A stretch of DNA of 60,173 bases from a virus (taxonomy: Duplodnaviria; Caudoviricetes), in IMG/VR virus record IMGVR_UViG_3300027769_001255, positions 1 to 60,173 of that record; one strand, written 5' to 3'. The position numbers and the translations under genes are program-made. Every line of letters starts with the position of its first letter. The stretch's first letter is position 1. The notes under the pieces were generated by a model. The model searched no databases. It had not been told where the DNA came from and saw only the letters and a list, made by a program, of their open reading frames with translations. Below are positions 3,728-58,758 of this stretch, piece by piece.

Positions 3728-4524
3728 GTCAGAAAATATTAATCATGGGTTTACCTGGAGCAGGAAAGACTTTCCTGGCCAAGGAACTCAAAGCACAAAT
3801 TGAAGCACGTGGCCGCCGGGTTGAGTGGTTCAATGCCGACGAGATACGTACCAAGTACAACGACTGGGATTTCAGTCCCGAAGGTCGTATGCGTCAAGCC
3901 AACCGCATGCGTACACTGGCCGAAGAGTGCACAGCAGACTATGTGATCTGTGACTTTGTGGCACCAACAGAACAGATGCGCAGTGCTTATCACGCAGACT
4001 GGACCATATGGGTTGACACCATTGACAAGGGTCGATTTGAAGACACCAACAAGATGTTTGTTCCGCCCACAGTGTATGACTTCCGCATCACTGAACAAAA
4101 ATGCGAAGTCTGGGCAGAGTTTGTAGCAGATCATATTGTGATGAACAAGCGACGCTCTGTGTTTGACTGGAAGAAAGAAACAGTACAGATGTTGGGTCGC
4201 TGGCAACCTTGGCATCCGGGTCATCGTGCCTTGTTTGAAAGACTGTTGCAACGCACAGGACAAGTGATCATTCAGATTCGAGATGTACAGGGTTGGCAGG
4301 GTAGCAATCCATTTGCTGTGGATCAGGTTAAAGGGTATATCACACGTGACCTAGATCCTCTTTATCAAGGCATGTATGAAATACAAGTAGTACCTAACAT
4401 TGTACACATTGGTTGGGGCCGCGGTGTAGGTTACACATCAGGTGAAGAAACATTTGATGAAAGCATCACACAGATCAGTGCCACCAACATCCGTGCTGAA
4501 ATGAAGGCCAAAGGCGAACTGTGA
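3724..4524 (+). CDS. Adenylylsulfate-kinase-like domain fused to HIGH-type nucleotidyltransferase domain
   Basis: GLPGAGKT P-loop, NADEIR, DFVAP; C-terminal LGRWQPWHPGH and SAT motif. Confidence 0.8.
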   Translation: MSQKILIMGLPGAGKTFLAKELKAQIEARGRRVEWFNADEIRTKYNDWDFSPEGRMRQANRMRTLAEECTADYVICDFVAPTEQMRSAYHADWTIWVDTIDKGRFEDTNKMFVPPTVYDFRITEQKCEVWAEFVADHIVMNKRRSVFDWKKETVQMLGRWQPWHPGHRALFERLLQRTGQVIIQIRDVQGWQGSNPFAVDQVKGYITRDLDPLYQGMYEIQVVPNIVHIGWGRGVGYTSGEETFDESITQISATNIRAEMKAKGEL

Positions 4525-4724
4525 GCGATACCAACCGCAGGAGTCTTGCCAAGGCAATCAGCTGGAGAGCAACAGGAACTCTAGATACCTTTTTAATCAG
4601 TTGGTTGATCACAGGCGAACTTGCGCTGGCTGGCGGTATTGCACTAACAGAAGTTGTTACCAAAATATTCTTGTTCTGGGCACATGAGCGTGTTTGGAAC
4701 AAGATAAAATGGGGAAGAACTTGA
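4521..4724 (+). CDS. DUF2061-like small membrane protein
   Basis: RSLAKAISWR...HERVWNKI pattern. Confidence 0.8.
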   Translation: MSDTNRRSLAKAISWRATGTLDTFLISWLITGELALAGGIALTEVVTKIFLFWAHERVWNKIKWGRT

Positions 4725-4749
4725 CATAACAATAGCTTTTTGCTATTAT
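4721..4749 (+). promoter_or_regulatory. Sigma70-type promoter for the tRNA-like RNA
   Basis: TTGACA-17nt-TATTAT with extended TG. Confidence 0.75.
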
Positions 4750-4791
4750 GTCATAATTAAATTACCGGCCGAGAAGGCCGGTAATGCTTTA

Positions 4792-4882
4792 GGAAGTGTG
4801 GCAGAGTGGTTTAATGCTCTTGTAACACACAAGTGAGCCACGTTTAATGGGTTCCGTGGGTTCGAATCCCACCGCTTCCGCC
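4792..4882 (+). tRNA. tRNA-Ser-like RNA with non-canonical 5-nt anticodon loop
   Basis: GGAAGTG/CGCTTCC acceptor stem, G73, D-loop GG, long variable arm, GTGGG-TTCGAAT-CCCAC T-arm; anticodon arm CTTGT-AACAC-ACAAG. Confidence 0.8.
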
Positions 4883-4941
4883 GGCGACCAGCTCCGGGAT
4901 TCCGAGAGGAATACGGTAAATAATTGATGGGAACTAACACA

Positions 4942-5301
4942 ATGAATAAGTCTTATTGGGGTTATCATCTTATCCTGGATTGCGCTGACGGAAGGCGCGA
5001 TGCGGTGACTGATGGTAAACATATCGCAGAATTCGCCAAGACACTAGTCAAGGATATTGATATGGTTGCTTACGGCGACCCACAGGTGGTGTTGTTTGGA
5101 ACAGGCAACAAGGAAGGCTATACGCTTGTCCAGTTGATTGAAACCAGCAACATTTGCGGACATTTTTGTAGCGAAAGCGGAGACCTTTATTTGGACGTCT
5201 TCAGCTGTAAGCCATACGATAAGGAAGTTGTAAAGAAGTTGGCTTACGAGTATTTTGGATTCACAAGCATGCGCGAAACCTACTTGGTTCGCCAGGCTTG
5301 A
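4942..5301 (+). CDS. speD: S-adenosylmethionine decarboxylase proenzyme (phage type)
   Basis: GYHLILD, LIETSNICGH cleavage region, YLDVFSCK. Confidence 0.85.
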   Translation: MNKSYWGYHLILDCADGRRDAVTDGKHIAEFAKTLVKDIDMVAYGDPQVVLFGTGNKEGYTLVQLIETSNICGHFCSESGDLYLDVFSCKPYDKEVVKKLAYEYFGFTSMRETYLVRQA

Positions 5302-5315
5302 AATAAACTATGGAT

Positions 5316-5346
5316 ACGGGGGTACCTTAAAAATACCCCCGTTTCT
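5316..5346 (+). terminator. Terminator-like hairpin
   Basis: ACGGGGGTA...TACCCCCGT followed by TTCT. Confidence 0.6.
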
Positions 5347-5362
5347 GTGGATGCAATACCAG

Positions 5363-5391
5363 TTGACAACAACACACAGACCTTGTATAAT
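5363..5391 (+). promoter_or_regulatory. Sigma70 promoter
   Basis: TTGACA-17nt-TATAAT. Confidence 0.8.
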
Positions 5392-5421
5392 ACAGAGACT
5401 GACACAGTAACATCGTAAGGA

Positions 5422-5673
5422 ATGCAAATGACAAAGACAGAACTAACCGAAATGTTGCGCAAGCAAGATGCAACGGTTACCTTCACCAAGAAGGATGGCA
5501 CTCAGCGTGTGATGCGCTGTACGCTACGCCCTGATGCATTACCCGAGATGATCACAGAGTCAACACGGACCAGTACTGAACGACGCGAGTCAGACAGTAC
5601 GATCGCGGTGTGGGATCTTGACCTCGGAGCCTGGCGTAGTTTCCGGCTCGATAGCTTGGTTGAAATCGCCTAA
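5422..5673 (+). CDS. WYL/SH3-like small phage protein (DUF2693-like)
   Basis: VTFTKKDGTQRVMRCT...VWDLDLGAWRSFR. Confidence 0.75.
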   Translation: MQMTKTELTEMLRKQDATVTFTKKDGTQRVMRCTLRPDALPEMITESTRTSTERRESDSTIAVWDLDLGAWRSFRLDSLVEIA

Positions 5674-5781
5674 CAACGTCGTGATCACTAGCTTCCCGAT
5701 ATTGGAGAAGCCTGCGTGAATCAAAGTGGACAGGTACACGGTCCACAAAGAGAAACGTAGCTAACCGAGAGGAGAATCGAA

Positions 5782-6450
5782 ATGATCGAACGTCTTAAAG
5801 GCACGTTCACTATGAACCTAGTTGGCTGGCTTTGCCTGCCTGCTTTGATTCTTAGTTTCATTCTATCAATACCGCCAGTGGCTGTGCTAACTGCCCTGGC
5901 CAATCAGACCGACATTCAAGGGTCTATACGAGAGACAATTCACAGAGATTTGTCTATGATTGCGTTACCTGAGTCTGCCAGTGTAGCACCTGCACGAAGA
6001 GATCCATTTGATATTGCCGAGTCATACAGCCGATGGTTGCCGGAACGCATGTTGCGCGATCGTCAAGTTATTTGCTTGGCCAAAAATATCTGGTATGAAA
6101 GCCGAGGTGAACCTTCAGATGGCCAATTGGCAGTGGGTTTAGTCACATTGAATCGTGCGGAACATACGTCCTGGCCTAAAACCATATGCGAAGTAGTTTA
6201 TCAGCCTGGACAATTCAGCTGGACAGCAGAACCGAGCTTACGTAATAAAAAGCCAACGGGCGAGCAATGGGAACAGATTGTGTTGCTCAGCGCCACCTTG
6301 ATGCATCGTAAGGATCTCTTTGATGACATCACAGATGGTGCTACTTACTTCCATGCGGCTTACATAAAGCCAGGTTGGAGCAAACTACAGCATCACACGG
6401 TGAGACTAGGTCAGCACGTTTTTTATAAACCAAAAGAACAACAAAACTAG
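5782..6450 (+). CDS. SleB-like cell wall hydrolase (Hydrolase_2) with N-terminal TM anchor
   Basis: CLAKNIWYESRGE, VTLNR, CEVVYQPGQFSW, GATYFH, GQHVFY. Confidence 0.9.
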   Translation: MIERLKGTFTMNLVGWLCLPALILSFILSIPPVAVLTALANQTDIQGSIRETIHRDLSMIALPESASVAPARRDPFDIAESYSRWLPERMLRDRQVICLAKNIWYESRGEPSDGQLAVGLVTLNRAEHTSWPKTICEVVYQPGQFSWTAEPSLRNKKPTGEQWEQIVLLSATLMHRKDLFDDITDGATYFHAAYIKPGWSKLQHHTVRLGQHVFYKPKEQQN

Positions 6451-7812: not shown

Positions 7813-8232
7813 ATGTCTGATACATCAGCACTTTATGTAACACCTCCTACGGTGTATATGCCTAGCACAGGATTAAGATTCAGTTTGATCAGCACAGACG
7901 AAGACTGGATCAAAGAAACCAGTGACGCACTAGAAAAAAGTTTTCATACCAAATTGACTTTTTATCATATCGAATCACCAGAAACGCCAGAGGATATAAC
8001 TTGGCAACTTTTATACATTCCATATTCAGACTTTGTGCTGTTGGATACCAACAGTCTAACAGTAGCGCAAAGCATGATTGGTTCTGCTCATGTAGAACAG
8101 AGCAATGTTTGGTGGCATGTTACTGATGATACCGAAGAAACACTGCAATCTCTTCTCACTGCTATTGCCGCTCGAACCTACGACGATATAGACACATTTC
8201 TCGAATCAATCAAGGAAAGAAATAATGGTTGA
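7813..8232 (+). CDS. Hypothetical protein
   Basis: ORF packed between neighbours. Confidence 0.7.
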   Translation: MSDTSALYVTPPTVYMPSTGLRFSLISTDEDWIKETSDALEKSFHTKLTFYHIESPETPEDITWQLLYIPYSDFVLLDTNSLTVAQSMIGSAHVEQSNVWWHVTDDTEETLQSLLTAIAARTYDDIDTFLESIKERNNG

Positions 8233-9469
8233 CACCAAGAAGGGACTAGTATGCAGTTTCTGTGCAAAGCCCAGAGACGAAGTTAAAAAACTAGTGGCAG
8301 GTGATTCGGCATTCATATGCGACGAGTGTATCACACTGTGTCATGACATCATCAAAGACGTTCCAAAAAATCAAGAAGGTTTAATAGACAAGACACCAGA
8401 AGCCATCAAGGCTTTCTTGGACAGATATGTCATTGGGCAAGACTATGCAAAGAAAGTACTTGCTGTAGGCGTGTATAATCATTTCAAGCGCATCTCTGGA
8501 ACAGCTGACACTGAAATAGACAAAAGCAATATTCTCATGCTCGGGCCAACTGGATCAGGCAAGACCTTGTTGGCCAAAACTGTGGCCAGACTGCTCGATG
8601 TTCCTTTTGCTGTGGCAGATGCGACTAGCCTTACAGAATCAGGTTATGTCGGTGACGACGTGGAAAGCGTGATACATCGACTGATTGTTGCCGCTGAAGG
8701 CGATGTCAAGAAAGCAGAGCGTGGTATCATATACCTTGATGAGTTTGACAAGAAAGCTCGCAAGGGTGGTGAGAATACCAGCATCACACGCGATGTAAGT
8801 GGCGAAGGTGTACAGCAAGCATTACTCAAGATCATTGAAGGAACTGAATGTAAGGTTCCTCCTGCTGGCGGTCGCAAGCATCCAGGGCAAGACATGCTCA
8901 CAGTGAACACCACCAATATCTTGTTCATCCTTGGCGGTGCGTTTGTTGGGCTCGATGAGATCGTAACCAAGCGCCGTGCAGGAAAAACCAGCATTGGATT
9001 TGCCGCAAGCCTTAAAAATGAATCTGATTCCCATGATTGGGAACAAGATGTACGTCCAGAAGATCTGCATTCATATGGTGTGATTCCAGAACTGGTAGGT
9101 CGCTTGCCCAACGTGGTTGGACTCAAAGCCCTGACAGAAGAGGATCTTGTACGTGCAATGAATGTACCAGAAAACTCCATTGAAAAACAAATGTGCAGTT
9201 TGTTCAGGATCGACGGAGTAGAACTAGAACTAACACAACCTGCTAGACTAGCAGTTGCCAAGGAATGTCTTGAGCGTGGTACTGGCGCCCGAGGACTTAG
9301 AAGTGTCTTGGAAAAAGCACTGCTAGAAACACAGTATCGATTGCCCACACTGGCCAAAGAAGGTGCACTGAGGATAATCGTAGATGAAGACGTAATCAAC
9401 GGTAAAAAGGAACCCATGATCATATACGGAGAGGCTCGTGTGAACAACACCCGAGGTAATGTAGCTTAA
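8225..9469 (+). CDS. clpX: ATP-dependent Clp protease ATP-binding subunit ClpX
   Basis: C4 zinc finger CSFC..CDEC, GPTGSGKT, DATSLTESGYVG, RDVSGEGVQQALLK, IGF loop, GARGLR. Confidence 0.97.
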   Translation: MVDTKKGLVCSFCAKPRDEVKKLVAGDSAFICDECITLCHDIIKDVPKNQEGLIDKTPEAIKAFLDRYVIGQDYAKKVLAVGVYNHFKRISGTADTEIDKSNILMLGPTGSGKTLLAKTVARLLDVPFAVADATSLTESGYVGDDVESVIHRLIVAAEGDVKKAERGIIYLDEFDKKARKGGENTSITRDVSGEGVQQALLKIIEGTECKVPPAGGRKHPGQDMLTVNTTNILFILGGAFVGLDEIVTKRRAGKTSIGFAASLKNESDSHDWEQDVRPEDLHSYGVIPELVGRLPNVVGLKALTEEDLVRAMNVPENSIEKQMCSLFRIDGVELELTQPARLAVAKECLERGTGARGLRSVLEKALLETQYRLPTLAKEGALRIIVDEDVINGKKEPMIIYGEARVNNTRGNVA

Positions 9470-9470
9470 T

Positions 9471-10028
9471 ATGGCTAGACAACTACAACCTGTGCGGAAA
9501 GACCTTCCTGCACACAACGAAGGAATTCGTGCTTGGAAATTGCGAGTAGTCGCAATCACCGAAGACGGAGAAAAAAACTTAGGCATTCTTGACACAAGAG
9601 ATGCGCTGAGAATGGCACAAGAACAAGGACTGGATCTTGTGGTCATTAACCCTCAGGTAGATCCCCCTGTAGCAAAGATCATGGACATGGGCAAATGGCT
9701 TTATCAAAAGTCCAAGTCTGAAAAAGAACGTCGTGCAGCCGAGCGCAATCGCGGCGGTGAAGTGCATGAGCTGACCATGAGACCCGGTATTGACGATCAT
9801 GACTTGGGTGTCAAGATTCGTAAAATACAAGAATGGGTTGAAAGTGGTGATCGCGTGAAGATCACAATACGTTTTCGCGGACGCGAAAATAGTCGTGCCG
9901 GTGACTTGGGTAAAGACCTAATAGAAAAAATCATTACTCAAAGCGGCGCCCAACGAGAGGGTAGAGAAGAACTCAATGGTAACCGGATGAGTCTTCTTCT
10001 TGGACGAGCAAAGACAGCGAGCAAGTAA
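9471..10028 (+). CDS. infC: Translation initiation factor IF-3
   Basis: NEGIRA, GLDLVVI, PPVAKIMD, RPGIDDHD, RFRGRE. Confidence 0.92.
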   Translation: MARQLQPVRKDLPAHNEGIRAWKLRVVAITEDGEKNLGILDTRDALRMAQEQGLDLVVINPQVDPPVAKIMDMGKWLYQKSKSEKERRAAERNRGGEVHELTMRPGIDDHDLGVKIRKIQEWVESGDRVKITIRFRGRENSRAGDLGKDLIEKIITQSGAQREGREELNGNRMSLLLGRAKTASK

Positions 10029-12018: not shown

Positions 12019-12108
12019 ATAGCTGTAGAGTGCCGAAGACGGGCTCTACCGAGTAATGTGTCTACCCAGAACATTACTTTGTTAACTCGCTTAAAAGGAG
12101 AAAACATC
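12019..12108 (+). promoter_or_regulatory. ROSE-like RNA thermometer candidate in hsp20 leader
   Basis: CTCGCT can pair with AGGAG RBS; upstream GTAGAG/CTCTAC hairpin; TAAATA at 12013. Confidence 0.55.
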
Positions 12109-12534
12109 ATGGGTAATAACTTTAATCTAGCACCTTACTATCACAGCTTTGTAGGCATCGATCGCCTGTTCAATGAGCTCAATCGTTTCATGGATGAACC
12201 TAAGAGTGTGTCGGGATATCCTCCTTGCAACGTGATTCGCAACGGCGAAGATCACTATGTGATTGAACTTGCAGTTGCAGGCTTTGCTCAGGAAGACATT
12301 GACCTACATGTCAAGGACGGCATTCTCACTGTAGAAGCCGCCAAGAAAGAAGCCGACGAGCGTGAGTACCTCCATAAGGGAATCGGAACACGTGCTTTTT
12401 CACGCACATTCCGATTGGCCGATCACATGGAAGTAAAAGGAGCAGATCTTCGCAACGGAATGCTCACGGTAACACTTGAAAGAGTTGTACCGGAAGAAGC
12501 CAAGCCCAAGCGTATTGCTATCGCCGCCAGCTAA
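12109..12534 (+). CDS. Small heat shock protein Hsp20/IbpA-like
   Basis: GYPPCN, IELAVAGF, YLHKGIGTRAFSRTF, NGMLTV. Confidence 0.95.
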   Translation: MGNNFNLAPYYHSFVGIDRLFNELNRFMDEPKSVSGYPPCNVIRNGEDHYVIELAVAGFAQEDIDLHVKDGILTVEAAKKEADEREYLHKGIGTRAFSRTFRLADHMEVKGADLRNGMLTVTLERVVPEEAKPKRIAIAAS

Positions 12535-18610: not shown

Positions 18611-19204
18611 ATGAGCTTAGTACCAATGGTCATTGAGACCACCGGACGCGGTGAACGTGCATATGATATCTACAGTCGCTTGCTCAAGGAACGCATCGTC
18701 CTACTTGAAGGCGAAGTGCATGACCAGATGGCCAATCTGATCGTGGCACAGCTATTGTATCTTGAAGCTGAAGATCCCAAGCGTGATATCAATCTGTGGA
18801 TCAACTCACCAGGTGGTAGTGTCACAGCAGGCATGGCCATCTATGATACCATGCAGTTCCTGGCACCAGATGTGAGTACTGTGGTAATGGGCCAGGCCTG
18901 TAGCATGGGGTCATTGCTGGCACAAGCAGGTGCCAAGGACAAGCGTATGATCTTGCCCAACGCACGACACATGATCCATCAACCCTCAGGTGGTGCTCGT
19001 GGACAGGCCACAGACATGGAAATCCAAGTGCGTGAGATCTTGGCCATGAAGAAGAACCTGACGCAGATCTATGTGGACCATAATTCAGCCAGCAAGAGCT
19101 TTGAAGACCTTGCCCGGGACATGGAGCGCGACTTCTTTATGAGTGCCGAAGAAGCAGTTGCATATGGATTGGCAGATAAGGTAATGACAAAGAGGACAGC
19201 ATGA
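18611..19204 (+). CDS. clpP: ClpP proteolytic subunit
   Basis: [20 protein letters not shown] (Ser), MIHQP (His), ERDFF (Asp). Confidence 0.97.
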
Positions 19205-32170: not shown

Positions 32171-33079
32171 ATGGATAAAACTCCTAACAATATTGCACTC
32201 TGGGCCATGCATCGTGCAGGTAGCACACATTTTGGTCAGCGACTGGCTTCAAGTCTGGCAGAGGTCTACGGAAAATATCCTGCGGTATCAAATTTAGGAG
32301 AAGCAACAGGTGCATCTGGAATTGTTTCAACCAAGCTCAATGGCAGTGGAATTTGGGCAGAGCTAGAAGGACATTTGTCTTTGGGAGCCGAATTTGTTAG
32401 CACTCATATTCGATGGGAATTTGACAAAGATAAAAATCTAATATGTGAAAATCATATGGGATCCATCAACTATGAAATGCATAGACGCATAGGTCTTATA
32501 AAATTGTCTGAATGGAAAAATCATTTGGTTCTTAGGAACATGCGATGGCCAAAAATGAATCATATCAGTATGGAATATGATCGTGCATTTGTTGCTGGAG
32601 ACTTTCATCATGTGGTGCTATGGCGGCGAGATCTATTTGATTGGATATGCAGTCGTTTTATCTTCCGTGTAACAGGAACACCGCATGGAATGAATCTTCA
32701 ATATGATGATGTTGAATATAAATTTGCAGAAGAGCGTATGGCTGATGAATTCATGTCTAAACTGAGAGGATATATTTTTAGTTTCCGTGATAGTTTGGAT
32801 TGTTTACCAAAAGAACGTACACTAATGGTTGAAACAACAACAATCAATAATGTACAGCAATTAAATTGGCTGGATCAAACAACACTCGAATTGATTGATC
32901 CACTTTCAATTCATCGAGGTGCAACTGTTTGGAAATCAAAGACTACCAATGAACGAGTACGCCCTGTGGACATGATAACCAACGAGACTAAAGAAAAATT
33001 CAAAAAGTGGACAGACAACCTTAACGAGGAACTGGATTGGTCCAACCTTGACTATAATACAGGATTAAAACTAGCATAG
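32171..33079 (+). CDS. Sulfotransferase-like P-loop protein
   Basis: HRAGST resembles 5'-PSB RSGST; LGE; LWRRD..S; AT-rich; TAAATA upstream. Confidence 0.5.
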   Translation: MDKTPNNIALWAMHRAGSTHFGQRLASSLAEVYGKYPAVSNLGEATGASGIVSTKLNGSGIWAELEGHLSLGAEFVSTHIRWEFDKDKNLICENHMGSINYEMHRRIGLIKLSEWKNHLVLRNMRWPKMNHISMEYDRAFVAGDFHHVVLWRRDLFDWICSRFIFRVTGTPHGMNLQYDDVEYKFAEERMADEFMSKLRGYIFSFRDSLDCLPKERTLMVETTTINNVQQLNWLDQTTLELIDPLSIHRGATVWKSKTTNERVRPVDMITNETKEKFKKWTDNLNEELDWSNLDYNTGLKLA

Positions 33080-33155
33080 TCCTTGTAGCTCAGCTGGATA
33101 GAGCATCGGTTTCCTAAACCGAGGGTCGCATGTTCAAGTCATGCCAAGGACACCA
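33079..33155 (+). tRNA. tRNA-Arg (anticodon CCT)
   Basis: GTCCTTG/CAAGGAC acceptor, TCGGT-TTCCTAA-ACCGA arm, TTCAAGT loop, encoded CCA. Confidence 0.93.
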
Positions 33156-33229: not shown

Positions 33230-33826
33230 ATGACAGACGACGTAGATGACCTTGACAGCATACTCGACGACATGGATTCGGGTAGCAAAAAGCCTACATT
33301 GAGTACTGCCGGAATTTTTCTTTTCGCCGAGGAATTCACTGCTGAGAGCACAAGCAAAGCTATCAAGTTCATTATTGAACGAAATCTCCTGCCTAAGAAA
33401 GATCGCTTGGGTAATCTTACTTTGATTATCAATAGCCCAGGTGGAGACCTTAACAGCGCATTTGCCTTGATTGATATCATGAAGGGTAGCAAGATTCCTA
33501 TCCATACACTTGGCATTGGACAGATATCCAGCTGTGGCCTGTTGACCTTTATGTCAGGGCAAAAAGGTTTCAGAACTATCACACCTAATACCAGCATTTT
33601 GAGTCATCAATACAGCTGGGGCAGTTATGGCAAGGAACATGAATTGATTGCACGTATCAAAGAGTTTGACCTGACAGGCGAACGCATGCTCAATCACTAC
33701 AAGAAATGCACAGGTCTTAGCGAAAAGGTAATCAAAGAAATATTGATGCCGCCACAGGATGTTTGGCTCAGTGCCAAAGAGGCTGTCAAATACGGTATCG
33801 CTGATCAAGTTAAAAACACCTATTAA
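33230..33826 (+). CDS. Second, divergent ClpP-family protease
   Basis: INSPGGD, ISSCG (Ser), LSHQ (His), DVWLSA.EA..YG..D. Confidence 0.88.
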   Translation: MTDDVDDLDSILDDMDSGSKKPTLSTAGIFLFAEEFTAESTSKAIKFIIERNLLPKKDRLGNLTLIINSPGGDLNSAFALIDIMKGSKIPIHTLGIGQISSCGLLTFMSGQKGFRTITPNTSILSHQYSWGSYGKEHELIARIKEFDLTGERMLNHYKKCTGLSEKVIKEILMPPQDVWLSAKEAVKYGIADQVKNTY

Positions 33827-40798: not shown

Positions 40799-40978
40799 AT
40801 GAAAACTTACACTGCACACGTTGAAGAAGACCCAGAAACTAAAGAACTCGTATTGGTGTTCCCTGACGAAGTTATGGAACAAGTTGGTTGGAACATTGGT
40901 GATACCATCCAGTGGACCGACAACAAAAACGGATCATGGACTCTTACACGTAAAGAAAGCAATGACACGGAAAGTTAA
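40799..40978 (+). CDS. AbrB/MazE-like small protein
   Basis: LVFPDEV..VGWNIGD; promoter TTGGCA-17-TATACT-6nt-ATG. Confidence 0.7.
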   Translation: MKTYTAHVEEDPETKELVLVFPDEVMEQVGWNIGDTIQWTDNKNGSWTLTRKESNDTES

Positions 40979-41882
40979 TCCTCCCTACGCAGGCCCTGTT
41001 ACATTCCTTGGAATAGATCCTGGGCCGCGAGAAGGTGCGAGATTTTCCGTGGTAGGAGTTCCATGGGATGGGGCAGTAAGCAATAGGCCAGGTCAACGGT
41101 TTGGTCCTCGTAACATACGACTGGCATCAACCATGCTCACACAAGAGGAGCATCCGCTATTCCTTACTGCCCCGCATGCGGTCACGCAAGACCTTGGTGA
41201 CATATTGCTGGAGCAACATTCCTACAGTGCACATCAACATTTAGAAAAAGAACTCAAGGCAGTGCTGGTTGAACAAGGTCTAATCAATAGAAATGTTGAA
41301 CCAATAATCCTTGGTGGTGATCACTCTATCACATTGCCTATTCTACGCACATTGAAACCAGTTGTAGGCGCACCGCTGGCCTTGTTGCATCTAGATGCAC
41401 ACCACGATAACTGGAGCAACGTGTTTGACGAACACATCAGCCATGGCACTTGGCTACACAGGGCTCTTTCAGACAACCTAGTTGAAGCAGAATTGATCTG
41501 TCAACTGGGTGTACGCAGTCCTAGTAATCCCAAGCACAACCAAGACCTAGCTAAGAAAGGTGCCATGGTCCTCACTGCACGTGAGTTGATGAAAAAAGAT
41601 CCAGGTGCAGTGGCCACTGCGATCTACAATAGAATTGGTAACACACCTGTGTGGTTTACCTTGGATATTGATTGTCTTGATCCTGCATTTGCTCCTGCTG
41701 TGGGTACACCGGAAGTGGGTGGACTGAGTACAATATGGTTGTTGGAGTTTATTGAGAATCTAAGACAGTTGAACTTTGTTGGAATGGATGTGGTAGAAGT
41801 GTCCGACAATGACGTTAATCAAATAACCGGTCTCGCTGCCGCAACAGCGGTATGGACCTACATGGCAATGAGGATGAAATGA
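40962..41882 (+). CDS. speB: Agmatinase (ureohydrolase family)
   Basis: GQRFGP, GGDHS, DAHHD, SHGT, DIDCLDP, PEVGG. Confidence 0.88.
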   Translation: MTRKVNPPYAGPVTFLGIDPGPREGARFSVVGVPWDGAVSNRPGQRFGPRNIRLASTMLTQEEHPLFLTAPHAVTQDLGDILLEQHSYSAHQHLEKELKAVLVEQGLINRNVEPIILGGDHSITLPILRTLKPVVGAPLALLHLDAHHDNWSNVFDEHISHGTWLHRALSDNLVEAELICQLGVRSPSNPKHNQDLAKKGAMVLTARELMKKDPGAVATAIYNRIGNTPVWFTLDIDCLDPAFAPAVGTPEVGGLSTIWLLEFIENLRQLNFVGMDVVEVSDNDVNQITGLAAATAVWTYMAMRMK

Positions 41883-51955: not shown

Positions 51956-52323
51956 AAAACACACACATTCTATCCGCTGTATTGTTAGCACTAGCACTAG
52001 CAGGATGCGCATCTACTAAAGAAACATTGGTGGTAAAACCACAAGTGGTCGAAAGACCCCGACTAGAAGTACCATCTCCTCAGCCGGTACAACAACTCCC
52101 GTTTGAATGGATTGTTATTACCAAAGAAAACTACGAAAAGAAATTCAAGGAAATTGAAAGCAAGGGTGGTAGTGTGACATTGTTTGCATTGACTCCTCAA
52201 GGTTATCAGAATCTTTCAATGAATGTGGCAGAACTGCGTCGCTTTATGCAACAACAGAAGGCAGTGATTGCCGCGTTGAAAAAGTATTACGAAGCAACTG
52301 AAGACAAACCCGCGGAGAAGTAA
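51952..52323 (+). CDS. o-spanin-like lipoprotein
   Basis: LAGC lipobox, Pro-rich, YQNLSMN. Confidence 0.7.
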   Translation: MKNTHILSAVLLALALAGCASTKETLVVKPQVVERPRLEVPSPQPVQQLPFEWIVITKENYEKKFKEIESKGGSVTLFALTPQGYQNLSMNVAELRRFMQQQKAVIAALKKYYEATEDKPAEK

Positions 52324-53132
52324 TGGATCCGTGGGCAACACTTAGGGTTTCCAGAGACGCTAGCCCTGAGGACATCAAGCAGGCTTATCGTAAGTTGGCA
52401 ATGAAGCACCATCCAGATCGCGGTGGTGATGAAGCCGAATTCAAAAACATACAAACAGCATACGATGACATAACGTCGGGCCGTGCAAACCAACCACCTC
52501 CGGGTGCAGGATTCAACCCTGGAGATCACTTTGGTTGGTCAGCACACTTTGGTGAAGGGTTTGGTGCTCCGCCATTTGGTTTCCAGCATCAGCGTATGCG
52601 ACGTATGGAAGACCTAAGTGTGGAGTATGCTATTTCCCTGGAAGACTTGTACCATGGCAAGTCTGACAAGATACGCATAATGACTCCTGACCGCGGTGCT
52701 TATATTGAGCTGGACGTAAACATAACTCCAGGCATGCCCAGCAACGCCAGGATCAGATATCCCGGAGCGGCGTCAACACATATACCCGGCGTGGTGCCGG
52801 GTGATGTATTCATACTCATAGCACAAAAGCCGCATGCATCTTTCCGCAGAGATGGTGACGATCTACATACCGAAAAGGAAGTATCTATATTTGATGCCAT
52901 GTTGGGCAAGGATATTTCGTTGACCACGCTGGATGGTAGACTGTTACAAATGCGCATTCCTCCAGGTGCTCGCCCAGGACTGCGCATGCGAGTAGCCGGA
53001 TCCGGAATGCCTAAATCCAATGGTAGTAGCAACAATGGAGATCTCTACGTTCAATTAAATATGAAAGTACCCAGACTGAAAGAAGAAGATTTAGACAAAA
53101 AACTAGTTGACATCATGCGTGAGAACAAGTAA
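52323..53132 (+). CDS. DnaJ-class (type II, CbpA-like) co-chaperone
   Basis: J-domain HPD, G/F region, C-terminal domain, no zinc finger. Confidence 0.92.
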   Translation: MDPWATLRVSRDASPEDIKQAYRKLAMKHHPDRGGDEAEFKNIQTAYDDITSGRANQPPPGAGFNPGDHFGWSAHFGEGFGAPPFGFQHQRMRRMEDLSVEYAISLEDLYHGKSDKIRIMTPDRGAYIELDVNITPGMPSNARIRYPGAASTHIPGVVPGDVFILIAQKPHASFRRDGDDLHTEKEVSIFDAMLGKDISLTTLDGRLLQMRIPPGARPGLRMRVAGSGMPKSNGSSNNGDLYVQLNMKVPRLKEEDLDKKLVDIMRENK

Positions 53133-53135
53133 AAT
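53107..53135 (+). promoter_or_regulatory. Sigma70 promoter, likely leaderless def transcript
   Basis: TTGACA-17-TAAAAT-6nt-ATG. Confidence 0.7.
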
Positions 53136-53141
53136 AGAACA

Positions 53142-53639
53142 ATGCAAAATTTATCCCTTGTAATAGAAGACCACCCTGCGCTTAGGCAATCCTGTGTAGA
53201 ATGGACAGGACAGGAAGATGCTGAAACACTGGTAAAGGACATGCTTCGATTGATGTTTGCTACCAACGGACTCGGACTTTCGGCTCCGCAGGTGGGTAAA
53301 AATTATCGGATGTTTGTGATGGGCAATCAGGATCGCATGTATGCATGTTTCAATCCCAGGATCATATCAGCCAGCATAGAAATGGAAATGGGCAAAGAAG
53401 GTTGTTTGAGTTTTCCAGGACTATGGCTGAATGTCAAACGACATACCGACATAGTTGTACAGTATGAGGATGTTGAAGGCAACAAACAGGAACAAACCTT
53501 TAGCGGAATTATTGCTAGATGTTTCCAGCATGAACTAGATCATCTAGATGGAGTTTGTTTTGTGGATCGTGCCGCCAAGCTCAGTCTTAAGATGGCACGT
53601 GAACGTCAATCCAAGTGGCTTAAAAAAGGTATCAAATAA
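53142..53639 (+). CDS. def: Peptide deformylase
   Basis: GLGLSAPQ, EGCLS, QHELDHL. Confidence 0.96.
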   Translation: MQNLSLVIEDHPALRQSCVEWTGQEDAETLVKDMLRLMFATNGLGLSAPQVGKNYRMFVMGNQDRMYACFNPRIISASIEMEMGKEGCLSFPGLWLNVKRHTDIVVQYEDVEGNKQEQTFSGIIARCFQHELDHLDGVCFVDRAAKLSLKMARERQSKWLKKGIK

Positions 53640-55864
53640 TGGAAAACGAAGAGCGTATCAGTCAAGTAATTCGTCGTGCACATGAACTTGCACACAGCCA
53701 CGAACATGAGTATGTAACACTGGAGCATATCCTCAGTGTGTTGCTGGAAGATGAAGAACTGTTATCACTGCTGGAGAAAATGCAGATTGATTACAAGATC
53801 ATTGCTGATCATGTGAATCAATGGTTGGCCGATGCCACTGAAATACGTGTACCAGGTTTGGTGCGGCCGCGCAAAACTGCTACATTAGAGCGTGTGTTCA
53901 ATCGTGCATTCATGCAAGCACTATTTTCCGGCCGCCATTCTATATCCCCCGTTGACTTGCTGACCAGCATACTCAGCGAGAAGAATAGCCATGCATCATA
54001 CTTCTTACAGCAAGCAGGATTGAACAAGAATTCTGTGCTGAAAACACTTACAGAAATTTCCACAGAAGACAGCGACCCGGTGCAAGATACCAAGCGCAAT
54101 TCTAACAAAATTCTCAACAAGTTCTGTGTGAATCTCAACGAAGAAAGCAAGAAGGGCAAAGTTGATCCGCTAATTGGGCGAGAAGATGAAGTTACCAACA
54201 TGGTAGACATCATGGCACGACGTAAGAAGAACAATGTGGTCCTGGTCGGCGAACCCGGTGTAGGTAAAACTGCCTTGGTTGAAGGTATGGCCCGTATGAT
54301 CACAGAAGGTCGAGTTCCTAACACACTTAAAGATCAAACCATCTACAGCCTGGACATTGCGGCATTGCTTGCCGGTACCAAGTTCCGCGGTGAATTTGAA
54401 GAGCGTCTCAAAATGATCATCAACGCACTGGAACAGCGAGATGATGCAATTTTGTTCATCGACGAGATCCACCAAATCATGGGTGCAGGTGCAGGCAGCA
54501 ACGGTGCAATGGATGCCGCGCAAATGCTGAAACCAAGCCTAGCACGTGGTAGTATTCGTTGCATTGGTAGTACCACATACGAAGAGTTCCGCAAGCACTT
54601 TGAAAAAGATCGTGCACTATTGCGTAGGTTTACCAAGGTAGACGTTGAAGAAATGACTGCTGAATCTACCAAGATCATGTTACGCCAACTGATGCCCAGC
54701 TATGTTGAATTCCACAAGGTTGGTGTCACAGAAGAAGCCATGGATCTAGCAGTTGATCTCAGTCGTCAACACATCCTGGATCGCTACTTGCCAGACAAGG
54801 CCATTGATGTGCTGGACTCTGCCATGGCCAGACTGCGTGTGCGTGGTATTGAAGACAGCACAGTTGATGCCAATGTTGTGCGCGAACAGATCAGCAAGAT
54901 GGCACGTATTCCAACCAGCCAGGTTAGCGAAGATCAAAAGATCGGCGTGCTGGAACTGGAAAGCCGCATCAAGACCAATGTGTTTGGACAGGATACTGCT
55001 GTGGACAAATTGCTGGATGCTGTGTACATTGCACGTGCTGGGTTGAAAGATGCAGAGCGTCCAATGGGCTGTTACTTGTTTGCTGGCCCGACTGGTACAG
55101 GCAAGACTGAACTGGCATTGCAGTTGGCAACAGGGCTTGGTGTTCCGCTGTTGCGCTACGACATGAGCGAGTACATGGAGCCACACAAGATCGCTACCTT
55201 GATTGGTAGCCCTCCCGGATATGTTGGTTATGCTGATGGTGGTGCAGGTTCAGGCAAGTTGATCAATGATCTTGAAAAGAGTCCAAACTCTGTGTTGCTG
55301 TTTGACGAAGTTGAAAAAGCACACCCTGACATTCTCAATGTGTTGCTGGGACTCATGGACAATGGCATCGTGACCAGCAGTAACGGCAAGACGGTGGTAG
55401 CGCGAAATGCCACCATCATCATGACATCTAACTTGGGTGCCGCTGCCAGCGAAAAGAAAGTGATTGGCTTTGGTAGCTCGCTCAACACTTCGGCTATCAC
55501 AGACGCAGTCAACAAGCATTTTGCACCAGAATTCCGCAACAGGCTGGATGCAGTGGTTGAGTTTGAAAGACTCAAGCCCGAAGTGCTTGCAAGCATCGCT
55601 GACAAGTTCATACGTGCCCTGAACAAGCAATTGGACACAGACGACCGTCATTTGCGACTCAAGCTAACTGATGCCGCCCGTGATGCATTGCTGAAAGAAG
55701 GGTATTCTGAGACAATGGGTGCTCGTCCAATGAAGCGTGTGATCAACGAACGCATCAAGAAGCCTCTGAGCCGCAAGGTACTGTTTGAGAGCTGGAATCA
55801 AGGCAATGTGAACATTGACTACGATGGCAACGATTTTAGTCTCAGGTATGACCCGACAAGCTAG
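53639..55864 (+). CDS. clpA: ATP-dependent Clp protease ATP-binding subunit ClpA
   Basis: HEYVTLEH N-domain, GEPGVGKT and GPTGTGKT, no ClpB M-domain, IGF loop, PEFRNR, MGAR. Confidence 0.93.
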   Translation: MENEERISQVIRRAHELAHSHEHEYVTLEHILSVLLEDEELLSLLEKMQIDYKIIADHVNQWLADATEIRVPGLVRPRKTATLERVFNRAFMQALFSGRHSISPVDLLTSILSEKNSHASYFLQQAGLNKNSVLKTLTEISTEDSDPVQDTKRNSNKILNKFCVNLNEESKKGKVDPLIGREDEVTNMVDIMARRKKNNVVLVGEPGVGKTALVEGMARMITEGRVPNTLKDQTIYSLDIAALLAGTKFRGEFEERLKMIINALEQRDDAILFIDEIHQIMGAGAGSNGAMDAAQMLKPSLARGSIRCIGSTTYEEFRKHFEKDRALLRRFTKVDVEEMTAESTKIMLRQLMPSYVEFHKVGVTEEAMDLAVDLSRQHILDRYLPDKAIDVLDSAMARLRVRGIEDSTVDANVVREQISKMARIPTSQVSEDQKIGVLELESRIKTNVFGQDTAVDKLLDAVYIARAGLKDAERPMGCYLFAGPTGTGKTELALQLATGLGVPLLRYDMSEYMEPHKIATLIGSPPGYVGYADGGAGSGKLINDLEKSPNSVLLFDEVEKAHPDILNVLLGLMDNGIVTSSNGKTVVARNATIIMTSNLGAAASEKKVIGFGSSLNTSAITDAVNKHFAPEFRNRLDAVVEFERLKPEVLASIADKFIRALNKQLDTDDRHLRLKLTDAARDALLKEGYSETMGARPMKRVINERIKKPLSRKVLFESWNQGNVNIDYDGNDFSLRYDPTS

Positions 55865-57510: not shown

Positions 57511-58758
57511 ATGGCAACCAGAATTAAACTAAGAAGAGATACAGCCACAAGATGGCAAAACATCAATCCTGTACTGTCACTGGGTGAGCCAGGTGTTGAA
57601 ACCGACACAGGCAAAATGAAAATCGGCGATGGTACTAAGACCTGGAATCTTTTGGATTACTTTGCTGGTGATGCAGGCGGCGCAGGCAGCAGGCTAGTCA
57701 ATGGTGCCAACGAAGTTGTACTGGGCGCAGATGGTGTGCTAACATTACCAAACAACGGCACTATAAATGATTACGTTGGCAGTCCTGGTATTCTTGGCAT
57801 ACTTATTGATAGAACTTTTCAAACTCCCGACAATACCAACCCTGCAAACTTTGGAACAAACACCATAAAACTACTGCTATCAGATGTTGAGGCAGAAGAG
57901 ATAAGAGAATACATATTAGCAGGTATTGGAGTAAGGGTTTGGTTCAACCAAGGCGACAGTTATCCAATTACCAGTTGTGTTCAAGTGTCTACTGGTGTAT
58001 GGACAGTCACAGCCACAGGCATGGGCAACAGATTTACTACCTTTGCGGCCAGTAACACATTGATATTCATCTACACTGGCGCTACTCCGAATACCTATAC
58101 AAACTTCCCGCAATATGTTCCAGCGGGTGACGGCGCTGGCATTACTATTTCTAAAGGCGGAAACAGTTGGAACTTTGGCACTGACGGTGCGTTAACACTA
58201 CCAAGTGGTGAGCCAATACTGTTTGGCAATGGTAACTCACGTATATTCGCGGGAATGGGTTTCCACATCAACAGTGAAGAAGGTATTTCATTAGAAGCAG
58301 TTGATACCACCGATCCAGCACTGCCTACCACTCATCAATGGTACTTTGGCACAGATGGTGTACTGACAGATGCTGGTGGTAGTTGGACAAAAACAACACT
58401 GAACCAACTTGCTACCACAGTACTAACAAAGGTTGTATGGACTGCCACTGCAGATTACATCAGCGGCGCCAAACTTACCATCCAAGTAGAGTGCAATGAA
58501 ACTGGTGGCACTGGCAATTGGGAAACTCAGGTCTGTGAAGCTGTGATTGCTGTGAGAGGTTGGGATAATACCAGTGTACCCGTAATATCTGTATACGGTG
58601 TAACACATACCAGTGTAGCCCCACTGATGACATTCACAGTAGACCGCAATCCAACAACTGGTTTGATTGAGATTGTGGGAACTAGAACAGGCACAGCTTC
58701 ACCCACTGGCGGTGCAAGTTTAAGAATATACTCCGTAGAAACGGCAACTAGAGATTAA
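57511..58758 (+). CDS. Tail fibre-like protein with Mtd_N-like N-terminus
   Basis: RIKLRRDT..NPVL..GE.G.ETDT.KMKIGDG; W-x-FGTDG-x-LT repeats; G/T rich. Confidence 0.8.
   Translation: MATRIKLRRDTATRWQNINPVLSLGEPGVETDTGKMKIGDGTKTWNLLDYFAGDAGGAGSRLVNGANEVVLGADGVLTLPNNGTINDYVGSPGILGILIDRTFQTPDNTNPANFGTNTIKLLLSDVEAEEIREYILAGIGVRVWFNQGDSYPITSCVQVSTGVWTVTATGMGNRFTTFAASNTLIFIYTGATPNTYTNFPQYVPAGDGAGITISKGGNSWNFGTDGALTLPSGEPILFGNGNSRIFAGMGFHINSEEGISLEAVDTTDPALPTTHQWYFGTDGVLTDAGGSWTKTTLNQLATTVLTKVVWTATADYISGAKLTIQVECNETGGTGNWETQVCEAVIAVRGWDNTSVPVISVYGVTHTSVAPLMTFTVDRNPTTGLIEIVGTRTGTASPTGGASLRIYSVETATRD

What the first reader, a model, noticed from the sequence alone, without database searches (positions are those of the whole stretch)
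4761..4915. tRNA-Ser body with a 5-nt, anticodon-less loop, own promoter and flanking hairpins
Seen: acceptor stem, G73, D-arm, long variable arm and T-arm are intact and serT-like, but the anticodon arm is CTTGT-AACAC-ACAAG (5-nt loop, no U33) and the 3' end reads GCCG, not CCA. It has a near-consensus promoter, a perfect 10-bp hairpin (4761-4785) before it and an ATTCC-GAGA-GGAAT hairpin after. Established: SerRS ignores the anticodon. Inference: a chargeable but non-decoding RNA (seryl donor, decoy against anticodon nucleases, or EF-Tu/SerRS sink), or an ACA-presenting mis-decoder of Cys codons.
Basis: partly seen in the sequence, partly recalled or inferred. Interest (0 to 1): 0.72.

Follow-up and report, generated by a model that had tools for sequence, protein, structure and literature searches.

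The report
Anticodon-less serine tRNA look-alike in phage
A large freshwater phage carries a well-kept copy of a serine tRNA whose codon-reading loop has been replaced by a short hairpin cap, so it can look like a tRNA to enzymes but almost certainly cannot read codons; what it is used for is still open.

Summary
Window 4792-4880(+) is a tRNA-Ser(UGA)-type gene (Rfam tRNA 43.4 bits). All arms are intact, with G73 and a long variable arm. The anticodon arm is a 5-bp stem capped by 5 nt (AACAC) where 14 of 15 compared relatives have CTTGAAA.

It is not an assembly error. Contigs from 4 other sequencing runs of 4 studies carry it letter for letter. One comes from an RNA library and bridges the element into the downstream speD gene.

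A second phage lineage (L142/L143, 81-83% nt identity) has the ortholog. Its loop is still 5 nt (GACAC), which can now close to a 6-bp stem with a 3-nt loop. Its variable arm is rebuilt but again forms a 5-bp stem. Promoter, 5' hairpin and 3' GNRA hairpin are all kept. Outside the variable arm the body changed at 2 of 68 positions, against about 12-14% at nearby neutral-like sites (p about 0.003-0.02).

Best reading: a selected, non-decoding tRNA-Ser mimic co-transcribed with speD. Its job is unproven. It could be a decoy for proteins that read the tRNA-Ser shape, a cis processing signal, or a young pseudogene. Mis-decoding of Cys codons is unlikely.

The scan noted comparable non-decoding tRNA-like genes on other DNA, none on this genome. 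New variant of a known kind; moderate interest.

The parts
4721..4749 (+). Sigma-70-type promoter-like site: TTGACA, 17 nt, TATTAT, with TG before the second hexamer
   Evidence: 11 of 12 matches. The ortholog L143 has one change, in the spacer.
4761..4785 (+). Perfect 10-bp hairpin with a 5-nt loop in the 5' leader, 6 nt before the tRNA-like body
   Evidence: In L143 only the first loop letter differs.
4792..4880 (+). tRNA-Ser(UGA)-derived tRNA-like gene, 89 nt up to discriminator G73, followed by CCG
   Evidence: Rfam tRNA 43.4 bits and ARAGORN. Alignment with 14 tRNA-Ser(UGA) relatives and one Ser-like tRNA, L097. Identical in contigs of 4 other runs. Ortholog in L142/L143.
4819..4833 (+). 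Pseudo-anticodon hairpin: 5-bp stem CTTGT/ACAAG with a 5-nt loop AACAC at 4824-4828
   Evidence: L084 and L096 have the same stem with the normal loop CTTGAAA. The L143 loop is GACAC, which can form 6 bp plus a 3-nt loop.
4834..4855 (+). Long variable arm: one free base, 5-bp stem GAGCC/GGTTC with a 10-nt loop, one free base
   Evidence: In L143 it is replaced by GAACT/AGTTC with a 6-nt loop. One pair changed on both sides and one on one side, with 9 of 21 letters different plus a 4-nt length change.
4881..4941 (+). 3' trailer and speD leader, with the hairpin ATTCC-GAGA-GGAAT (4899-4912) and outer pairs 4894-4896/4914-4916
   Evidence: L143 keeps the hairpin with a GCGA loop, which like GAGA fits the GNRA pattern, and has a longer outer stem. 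No terminator-like site on the + strand between the tRNA-like gene and speD.
4942..5301 (+). S-adenosylmethionine decarboxylase (speD-like) gene, downstream on the same strand
   Evidence: Pfam AdoMet_dc, E 3.6e-15. An RNA-library contig covers 4776-5242 in one piece.

Best explanation
The element is a serine tRNA (UGA type) gene that lost its decoding loop and has since been kept by selection as a tRNA-shaped, non-decoding RNA.

It would be transcribed by host RNA polymerase from the promoter at 4721-4749, together with speD. It has every feature that tRNA-handling enzymes read:
- acceptor stem and T arm, for RNase P, 3' trimming and CCA addition;
- the D/T elbow nucleotides;
- the serine identity set (long variable arm, G73, G1-C72, G2-C71), which does not include the anticodon.

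Its 5-nt loop cap (effectively a 3-nt loop in the ortholog) cannot present an anticodon.

My preferred mode of action is that the released RNA works in trans as a stand-in for tRNA-Ser. It would act as a decoy or competitor for proteins that pick tRNA-Ser by its body: the variable arm and the acceptor end. Examples are host toxins or immune nucleases aimed at tRNAs, or SerRS itself. It would do this without disturbing decoding.

Shown: the anatomy, its reality, its conservation in a second lineage, and an RNA-library contig that bridges it to speD. Inferred: processing, charging, the trans-acting role and any target.

Confidence that it is a selected, non-decoding tRNA-like RNA of some function is about 0.65. 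Confidence in the decoy/competitor mode specifically is the figure given below.
For: (1) Derivation. The first 26 bases and both strands of the anticodon stem match L084, which has the normal loop (blastn 97% over 33 nt). The T arm and 3' acceptor strand are identical to L086-L088 and L094.

(2) Reality. Four runs of four studies hold it unchanged:
- X3 record 16: 10,993 nt, spans 4300-5500, 1 difference, 0 gaps.
- X9 record 29.
- X10 record 3.
- X12 (RNA library) record 11: covers 4776-5242.

(3) Ortholog. L142 and L143 are syntenic, at 83.0% identity over 2,698 nt and 81.1% over 7,906 nt. The loop length is kept. Every difference in the RNA lies in a loop or keeps pairing.

(4) Constraint. 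The body outside the variable arm differs at 2 of 68 positions. Four-fold sites of the three nearest genes differ at 15 of 108 (binomial p 0.0027). Those sites pooled with two other intergenic stretches of the same block differ at 41 of 336 (Fisher p 0.013). The promoter-plus-hairpin leader differs at 2 of 67 (p 0.003 and 0.014).

(5) The variable arm changed far more than the neutral rate: 9 of 21 letters plus a 4-nt length change (p about 0.001). It still forms a 5-bp stem with one free base on each side.

(6) Literature read:
[quoted passage not shown] - Septu and retron-Eco7 cut the variable arm of tRNA-Tyr, and T5's own tRNA-Tyr escapes through a different variable loop (PMC13096335 passages).
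- Cas12a3 cuts CCA tails after reading the acceptor stem and T arm (PMC12851939 passages).
Against: - Only two lineages are known, so the statistics rest on one pairwise comparison.
- The element sits in a block of about 1.3 kb (about 4550-5900) that is 91-97% identical, against 55-89% elsewhere. Little time has passed for decay, and p values of 0.003-0.02 are modest.
- The rebuilt variable arm could be one patch copied from another tRNA-Ser gene. That would keep pairing without any selection.
- A working tRNA-Ser would serve as a decoy and as a supplement at once, so loss of decoding is not explained by the decoy idea.
- No partner gene was seen among the 40 window proteins scanned with Pfam.
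- Nothing shows that the RNA is cut out, CCA-tailed or charged. The RNA-library contig may contain DNA.
- No other phage with such an element was found.
Confidence: 0.35

Rival explanations
1. Cis-acting processing and stability module for the speD message, working like the t-elements of plant mitochondria. RNase P and a 3' endonuclease would cut at the tRNA shape. That removes the 5' hairpin leader and leaves a speD mRNA that starts with its own GNRA hairpin. The released tRNA-like piece is a by-product.
For: Promoter, hairpin, tRNA-like gene, hairpin and speD lie in one orientation, with no terminator-like site on the + strand between them. An RNA-library contig runs from 4776 to 5242. The whole unit from promoter to speD start is conserved in L143. 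The changes fall where RNase P does not look: the variable arm, the pseudo-anticodon loop and a D-loop position. t-elements are tRNA-like, define mRNA ends, get CCA tails and are not charged (PMC1920247, listing abstract; bioRxiv 10.1101/2024.09.09.612099, abstract and passages).
Against: speD genes of other phages do without it. Only 3 of 42 speD loci hold any tRNA within 2.5 kb, and none has this arrangement. A processing signal does not need an intact variable-arm stem, G73 or the serine acceptor pairs. With so little divergence their retention proves little either way.
Confidence: 0.28
2. Young pseudogene. A solitary tRNA-Ser(UGA) gene lost its anticodon loop and is carried along in a conserved or recently exchanged block. 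The phage's other tRNA genes do the decoding.
For: The surrounding block is unusually similar between the two lineages: four-fold-site divergence is 0.125-0.167 here against 0.39-0.59 in the other genes (profile). Related phage genomes at least 90% complete hold 10-46 tRNA matches each (6 of 6 records), and related loci carry normal tRNA-Ser(UGA) genes (for example L056), so a spare copy is plausible. The window is only about 16% of the genome. tRNA-like oddities are not rare in these loci: 9 of 113 acceptor-plus-T-arm candidates were not ARAGORN tRNAs.
Against: The body changed less than neighbouring intergenic and four-fold sites. All differences spare pairing. The loop change is not a simple deletion of the normal loop. 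The promoter and both flanking hairpins are kept.
Confidence: 0.25
3. Seryl carrier for a reaction outside the ribosome, as with aminoacyl-tRNA-dependent transferases. The RNA would be charged by SerRS and kept away from decoding by its missing anticodon.
For: The serine identity features are present and do not need the anticodon.
Against: No transferase of that kind was seen among the 40 window proteins scanned with Pfam. About 84% of the genome is unseen. The T stem equals that of ordinary tRNA-Ser relatives, so nothing suggests that it avoids the elongation factor.
Confidence: 0.05
4. Unusual decoder. With the last stem pair open, a 7-nt loop presents ACA, and a seryl-tRNA reads UGU (Cys) codons.
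For: ARAGORN makes this call in the window and in both ortholog contigs. The letters ACAC are kept in both lineages.
Against: Position 33 would be A or G and position 37 would be C. The stem would have 4 pairs. In L143 the first and last loop letters can pair, giving 6 bp and a 3-nt loop. That U33 and a purine at 37 are near-universal is recalled knowledge, not a tool result.
Confidence: 0.03
5. Assembly or sequencing artefact.
For: None found.
Against: The sequence is identical in contigs of 4 further runs from 4 studies. The 5-nt loop is also present in two metagenome contigs of a different lineage.
Confidence: 0.01

Closest known systems
Canonical bacterial and phage tRNA-Ser(UGA), for example the genes in L084, L086 and L096, and tRNA-Ser of Pseudomonas phage ZC03 (KU356690.1)
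   Same: Acceptor stem, D arm, anticodon stem, T arm and discriminator G are shared. The variable arm is built alike: one free base, a 5-bp stem, one free base. The first 26 bases and the anticodon stem equal L084. The T arm and 3' strand equal L086.
   Different: A 5-nt loop (AACAC or GACAC) stands in place of CTTGAAA, so there is no U33, no serine anticodon and no purine at 37. The variable-arm loop is longer. It stands alone upstream of speD, not in a tRNA array.
Pseudo-tRNA 'tRNA-Other' of Bacillus cereus (PMC3399842, abstract read)
   Same: A tRNA-derived gene that does not work in translation, is expressed as part of a longer RNA, and was proposed to have been recruited to another function.
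   Different: tRNA-Other flanks a genomic island in a bacterium. This element is in a lytic-type jumbo phage fragment, keeps a full serine identity set, and has a shortened loop. No sequence relation was tested.
t-elements of plant mitochondria (PMC1920247, listing abstract; bioRxiv 10.1101/2024.09.09.612099, abstract and passages)
   Same: tRNA-like structures next to protein genes on the same transcript, recognised by tRNA end-processing enzymes. They are CCA-tailed but not used in translation.
   Different: t-elements were reported as not aminoacylated and are organellar. Here cleavage has not been shown, and the serine identity features are intact.
Phage tRNAs that counter tRNA-directed defences, such as T5 and T6 tRNA-Tyr against retron-Eco7 and Septu (PMC13096335, passages)
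   Same: A phage-encoded class II tRNA body whose variable arm is the contested part. Early, strong expression is proposed to matter.
   Different: Those tRNAs still decode. This one cannot, so it could only soak up or block an effector, not replace the lost tRNA. No defence system is linked to it by any result here.

Membership tests
tRNA (Rfam RF00005) | Score at or above the curated cut-off, with the full-length cloverleaf matched | tested here: met
   43.4 bits against a cut-off of 29, model positions 1-71.
tRNA (Rfam RF00005) | 7-nt anticodon loop able to present an anticodon (U33, purine 37) | tested here: not met
   The loop is 5 nt in the model alignment. The forced 7-nt reading has A or G at 33 and C at 37. 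L143 folds to a 3-nt loop.
Bacterial tRNA-Ser (class II) | Long variable arm with a stem, and the flanking free bases as in tRNA-Ser | tested here: met
   5-bp stem with one free base on each side, as in L084. The stem is kept in L143 through paired changes.
Bacterial tRNA-Ser (class II) | G73, G1-C72 and G2-C71, the acceptor features named for bacterial serine identity | tested here: met
   Read from the sequence. The features are as listed in PMC9976931 passages.
Bacterial tRNA-Ser (class II) | Serine anticodon (NGA or GCU) | tested here: not met
   The loop is AACAC or GACAC. 14 of 15 compared relatives have CTTGAAA.
Bacterial tRNA-Ser (class II) | Charged with serine by SerRS | not testable with these tools
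   Needs an aminoacylation assay.
tRNA-like processing signal (t-element kind) | Lies on the same transcript as a neighbouring mRNA | tested here: inconclusive
   An RNA-library contig bridges 4776-5242, but DNA carry-over is not excluded. No + strand terminator-like site lies between them.
tRNA-like processing signal (t-element kind) | Cut by RNase P and a 3' endonuclease at its borders | not testable with these tools
   Contigs cannot show RNA ends (notes).
Pseudo-tRNA / decaying tRNA pseudogene | Evolves at the neutral rate, with stem-breaking changes | tested here: not met
   2 of 68 changes against 15 of 108 and 41 of 336 at control sites. No change breaks a stem. The test has only one ortholog pair, so it is weak.

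The most novel reading that the evidence does not exclude
A jumbo phage makes, from a strong early promoter, a chargeable but non-decoding copy of tRNA-Ser. It serves as a molecular decoy or sponge for host immune effectors or toxins that recognise class II tRNAs by their variable arm and acceptor end. The variable arm is the fast-evolving interface of that arms race. This would be the first tRNA-shaped anti-defence RNA that works by mimicry and not by resupplying a decoder.
Probability: 0.15. Interest if true: 0.8.

Novelty: new variant of a known kind. Interest (0 to 1): 0.52.

Why it matters
Phage tRNAs are now seen as tools against defences that destroy host tRNAs, but all known cases still decode. 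A conserved phage RNA that keeps every handle of tRNA-Ser except the anticodon would separate two roles: being recognised as a tRNA, and reading codons. It gives a simple test object for two questions:
- Can a tRNA body alone blunt effectors aimed at the variable arm or the CCA end?
- Do phages use tRNA shapes as processing signals for auxiliary metabolic genes such as speD?

If it is only a young pseudogene, it is still a clean example of how gene finders mislabel such genes: ARAGORN calls it tRNA-Cys(ACA).

Tried and rejected
Searches for more copies:
- Exact and gapped patterns for the odd arm found nothing in viral contigs or metagenome contigs.
- A looser pattern in metagenome contigs gave the two ortholog contigs and one chance hit, L144.
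- The same-stem, 5-nt-loop pattern gave 4 loci in viral contigs. One is L145, a different tRNA-like RNA. The other three (L146-L148) are identical and lie in sequence with no tRNA features.
- The same pattern gave 14 loci in genome contigs. L155 shows the same letters as L145 over the stretch printed. L156 is a short archaeal tRNA-like. The other 12 lack a 7-bp acceptor pairing in my check.

Synteny:
- 80 loci around relatives of the upstream 279-aa gene (65-74% aa identity) and 42 loci around speD relatives do not contain the element.
- In the isolate-phage collection the only matches are ordinary tRNA-Ser genes, two of them unannotated.
- E. coli genomes gave no match.

RNA evidence: in run X12 the stretches 4713-4775 and 5243-5394 have no contig. 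They include the two promoter-like sites, which would fit transcript starts. A part without cover in one contig-level run is not evidence, and I do not use it.

Variable arm as the real anticodon arm: I found no 7-nt loop with a U at position 33 closed by a stem (read; folds).

Origin of the L143 variable arm: its full 16-nt motif occurs only in L142/L143 among all loci held. A 10-nt core occurs elsewhere by chance. No donor was found.

Papers: searches for a described phage tRNA-like with a shortened or missing anticodon loop returned nothing relevant in their listings.

Earlier scan notes: none on this genome or on this sequence.

Full report
**What the window is.** The window is a whole IMG/VR virus record of 60,173 bases. 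CheckV rates it about 16% complete, so it is a fragment of a jumbo phage. Its genes fit that: IF3, ClpX, ClpP, a ClpB-like ATPase, DnaJ, Hsp20, three radical SAM proteins, an agmatinase-family enzyme, speD, PhoH and a clamp loader. Contigs related through the neighbouring 279-aa gene or through speD reach 340-450 kb. Records at least 90% complete hold 10-46 tRNA matches each (6 of 6 such records; 14 of 18 records searched had a match). The window itself has only two tRNA-type genes. One is a normal tRNA-Arg(CCU) at 33079-33155 (68 bits). The other is the element in question.

**The observation.**
- Acceptor stem: 7 pairs (4792-4798 with 4873-4879), then discriminator G at 4880.
- D arm with the GG of the D loop.
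- Hairpin CTTGT-AACAC-ACAAG at 4819-4833.
- Long extra arm GAGCC/GGTTC at 4835-4854, with one free base on each side.
- Canonical T arm at 4856-4872.
- The gene is followed by CCG.

Rfam's tRNA model scores 43.4 bits against a cut-off of 29. Its alignment shows 5 loop letters where the model has 7. ARAGORN reports 'tRNA-Cys (aca)' by opening the last stem pair.

The 10-bp hairpin at 4761-4785 and the ATTCC-GAGA-GGAAT hairpin at 4899-4912 are there. The promoter-like site (TTGACA, 17 nt, TATTAT, with TG) lies at 4721-4749. The number of such sites in the region is what shuffles give (2 found, 1.5 +/- 1.4 expected). The missing CCA is ordinary: 6 of 15 compared relatives lack it too.

**Where it comes from.** A pattern of the first 18 bases plus the T loop found 16 loci in viral contigs. 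ARAGORN of these 16 as tRNA-Ser(UGA) at that place. I aligned 15 comparators: 14 of those loci, leaving out L090 and L099 (same tRNA coordinates and ARAGORN call as L086), plus the tRNA-Ser of Pseudomonas phage ZC03.
- 14 of the 15 have the loop CTTGAAA, and one (L097) has CTTTAAA.
- L084 shares the window's first 26 bases and both strands of its anticodon stem, but has the normal loop.
- L086-L088 and L094 share its T arm and 3' acceptor strand exactly.

So the element is a tRNA-Ser(UGA) gene in which only the loop was replaced. The change is not a simple two-base deletion. The extra arm is also longer than in the relatives.

**Not an artefact.** One call laid contigs of four other runs from four studies on 4300-5500.
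- X3: a 10,993-nt contig spans the whole stretch with 1 different letter (4897, outside the RNA) and no gaps.
- X9: a contig covers 4758-5072.
- X10: a contig covers 4678-4946.
- X12, an RNA library: a contig covers 4776-5242.

All agree with the window inside the tRNA-like gene. No insertion or deletion was listed in any run. The X12 contig bridges the tRNA-like gene and speD. The tool warns that DNA can be present in such libraries, so this is a hint of co-transcription, not proof.

**A second lineage.** A gapped pattern in metagenome contigs gave L142 (2,686 nt) and L143 (8,966 nt), plus one chance hit. Both are syntenic with the window, at 83.0% identity over 2,698 nt and 81.1% over 7,906 nt. 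Their copy of the element differs as follows.
- One D-loop letter differs.
- The first loop letter is changed (AACAC to GACAC). The loop is still 5 nt, but its first and last letters can now pair. The predicted fold is a 6-bp stem with a 3-nt loop.
- The extra arm is rebuilt to GAACT/AGTTC with a 6-nt loop. One pair changed on both sides and one on one side, and the same single free bases flank it.
- The promoter has one spacer change.
- The 5' hairpin has one loop change.
- The first 11 trailer bases are unchanged.
- The 3' hairpin keeps a GNRA-type loop (GAGA to GCGA) and gains outer pairs.

**How strong is the constraint?** Most genes differ at 39-59% of four-fold sites between the two lineages. 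The three genes around the element differ at only 12.5-16.7% (15 of 108 sites). A sliding profile shows a block at about 4550-5900 with 91-97% identity. The proper yardstick is therefore local.

| Part | Differences | Test against local controls |
|---|---|---|
| RNA body outside the extra arm | 2 of 68 | binomial p 0.0027 vs 15/108; Fisher p 0.013 vs 41/336 |
| Promoter and hairpin leader | 2 of 67 | p 0.003 and 0.014 |
| Trailer | 6 of 61 | not different |
| Extra arm | 9 of 21, plus a 4-nt length change | p about 0.001 for excess |

The 41 of 336 control pools the four-fold sites with two other intergenic stretches of the block. This speaks for purifying selection on the tRNA shape and its promoter, and for an unusually labile extra arm. 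It rests on one pair of sequences. The extra-arm change could be a single patch event.

**No further copies.** Searches found no further copy.
- Exact or same-stem patterns in viral, metagenome and genome collections.
- 80 loci around the upstream gene and 42 around speD.
- The isolate-phage collection, where matches are normal tRNA-Ser genes.
- E. coli genomes.

Only 6 of 80 and 3 of 42 of those loci hold any ARAGORN tRNA at all. The scan's earlier notes hold nothing on this genome or sequence. They do describe comparable non-decoding tRNA-like genes elsewhere.

**What it can and cannot do.** Decoding is very unlikely. The loop is 5 nt, or effectively 3 in L143. The forced 7-nt reading has A or G at position 33 and C at 37. 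That U33 and a purine at 37 are near-universal is recalled knowledge.

Everything else that tRNA enzymes read is present. [quoted passage not shown] All of these are in the sequence. Processing, CCA addition and charging are therefore plausible but not shown.

**How it most likely works.** I put about 0.65 on a selected, non-decoding tRNA-like RNA. Within that I slightly prefer a trans-acting tRNA-Ser stand-in (0.35).
- Three kinds of effector that choose tRNAs by the body, not by the anticodon, are now described:
  - Septu and retron-Eco7, which cut the extra arm of tRNA-Tyr, with phage T5's variant arm escaping (PMC13096335).
  - Cas12a3, which cuts CCA tails after reading the acceptor stem and T arm (PMC12851939).
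- The labile but always well-formed extra arm and the strong early-type promoter fit such a contest.
- Against it: a working tRNA-Ser would do the same and more, no target is known, and only about 16% of the genome is seen.

**Rival readings.** The nearest rival (0.28) is a cis-acting processing and stability signal for the speD message, like plant mitochondrial t-elements. The layout and the bridging RNA contig fit this, and so do the positions of the changes. A young pseudogene riding in a recently exchanged block stays at 0.25. A seryl donor (0.05), a Cys-codon mis-decoder (0.03) and an artefact (0.01) are minor.

**Comparison and novelty.** It passes the Rfam tRNA score but fails the defining anticodon-loop feature, so I do not file it as a tRNA or as a tRNA-Ser. 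It is a tRNA-Ser-derived tRNA-like RNA. Known kinds it resembles are the pseudo-tRNA tRNA-Other (PMC3399842 abstract), t-elements, and phage anti-defence tRNAs.

I found no paper describing a conserved phage tRNA body with a shortened, anticodon-less loop in the listings of three searches. Supplements were not available. I rate it a new variant of a known kind, with interest 0.52. The object is real, conserved in two lineages and easy to test, but its function is unproven and the comparative evidence is thin.

Noticed in passing
L097:907-1006 (+): A tRNA-Ser-like gene with the same first 18 bases as the window element, but with anticodon loop CTTTAAA (anticodon UUA, which would read the stop codon UAA) and a roughly 29-nt variable arm. 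Rfam tRNA scores 52.4 bits; ARAGORN does not call it. Counting open frames with TAA read as sense gave no clear sign of recoding in the 11 kb held.
   Followed up: partly
L145:4356-4448 (-), with the same letters in L155 (Achromobacter marplatensis contig): A 93-nt tRNA-like RNA gene between two terminator-like hairpins in a prophage-like region near terminase genes. It has a 7-bp acceptor stem, a T arm, a long extra arm, and a hairpin with the same stem as the window's and a 5-nt loop TGCAC. Rfam tRNA scores only 18.5 bits. The stem identity was imposed by my search pattern; the shared CAC in the loop may be chance.
   Followed up: partly
L033/L035/L037/L040:1905-2019 (-) and L031:178-281 (-): tRNA-like elements of 104-115 nt (7-bp acceptor stem plus a canonical T arm, with a large irregular middle). 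They lie about 1 kb upstream of the relatives of the 279-aa gene, on the other strand. ARAGORN does not call them; Rfam, run on L033 and L031 only, gave no match at E<=0.01.
   Followed up: partly
window 4550-5900: A block holding the DUF2061 gene, the tRNA-like gene, speD, a WYL_2 gene and the start of a cell-wall hydrolase gene. It is 91-97% identical to L143, while the flanks are 55-89%. Four-fold-site divergence is 0.13-0.17 against 0.39-0.59. This looks like a recent exchange between two phage lineages.
   Followed up: partly
window 5363-5391 and 5422-5673: A perfect TTGACA-17-TATAAT site (12 of 12) lies before a stand-alone 83-aa WYL_2 (Sm-like barrel) gene. A WYL_2 gene also lies directly upstream of speD in L111, L127 and L128.
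   Followed up: no
window 8225-10028, 12058-12534, 18611-19204, 33230-33826, 40821-41882, 52323-55864: The fragment encodes a full IF3, ClpX, two ClpP-like proteins, a ClpB/ClpA-like ATPase, DnaJ and Hsp20. It also encodes an arginase/agmatinase-family enzyme that, with speD, points to polyamine synthesis.
   Followed up: no
L156:6808-6894 (+) (Nitrosopumilus MAG contig): An 87-nt RNA gene with a 7-bp acceptor stem, a T arm, an encoded CCA and a hairpin with a 5-nt loop. Rfam aligns it to the two ends of tmRNA at 28.9 bits, below the cut-off of 47.
   Followed up: partly
L163:1201-1290 (MN047793.1) and L164:1202-1294 (MG752970.1): Ordinary tRNA-Ser genes (UGA and CGA) that carry no annotation in the deposited records of Xanthomonas phage Xoo-sp13 and Ralstonia phage RsoM2USA.
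   Followed up: yes
window 57511-58758: A 415-aa protein with an N-terminal Mtd_N domain (major tropism determinant), which may be a target of a diversity-generating retroelement.
   Followed up: no
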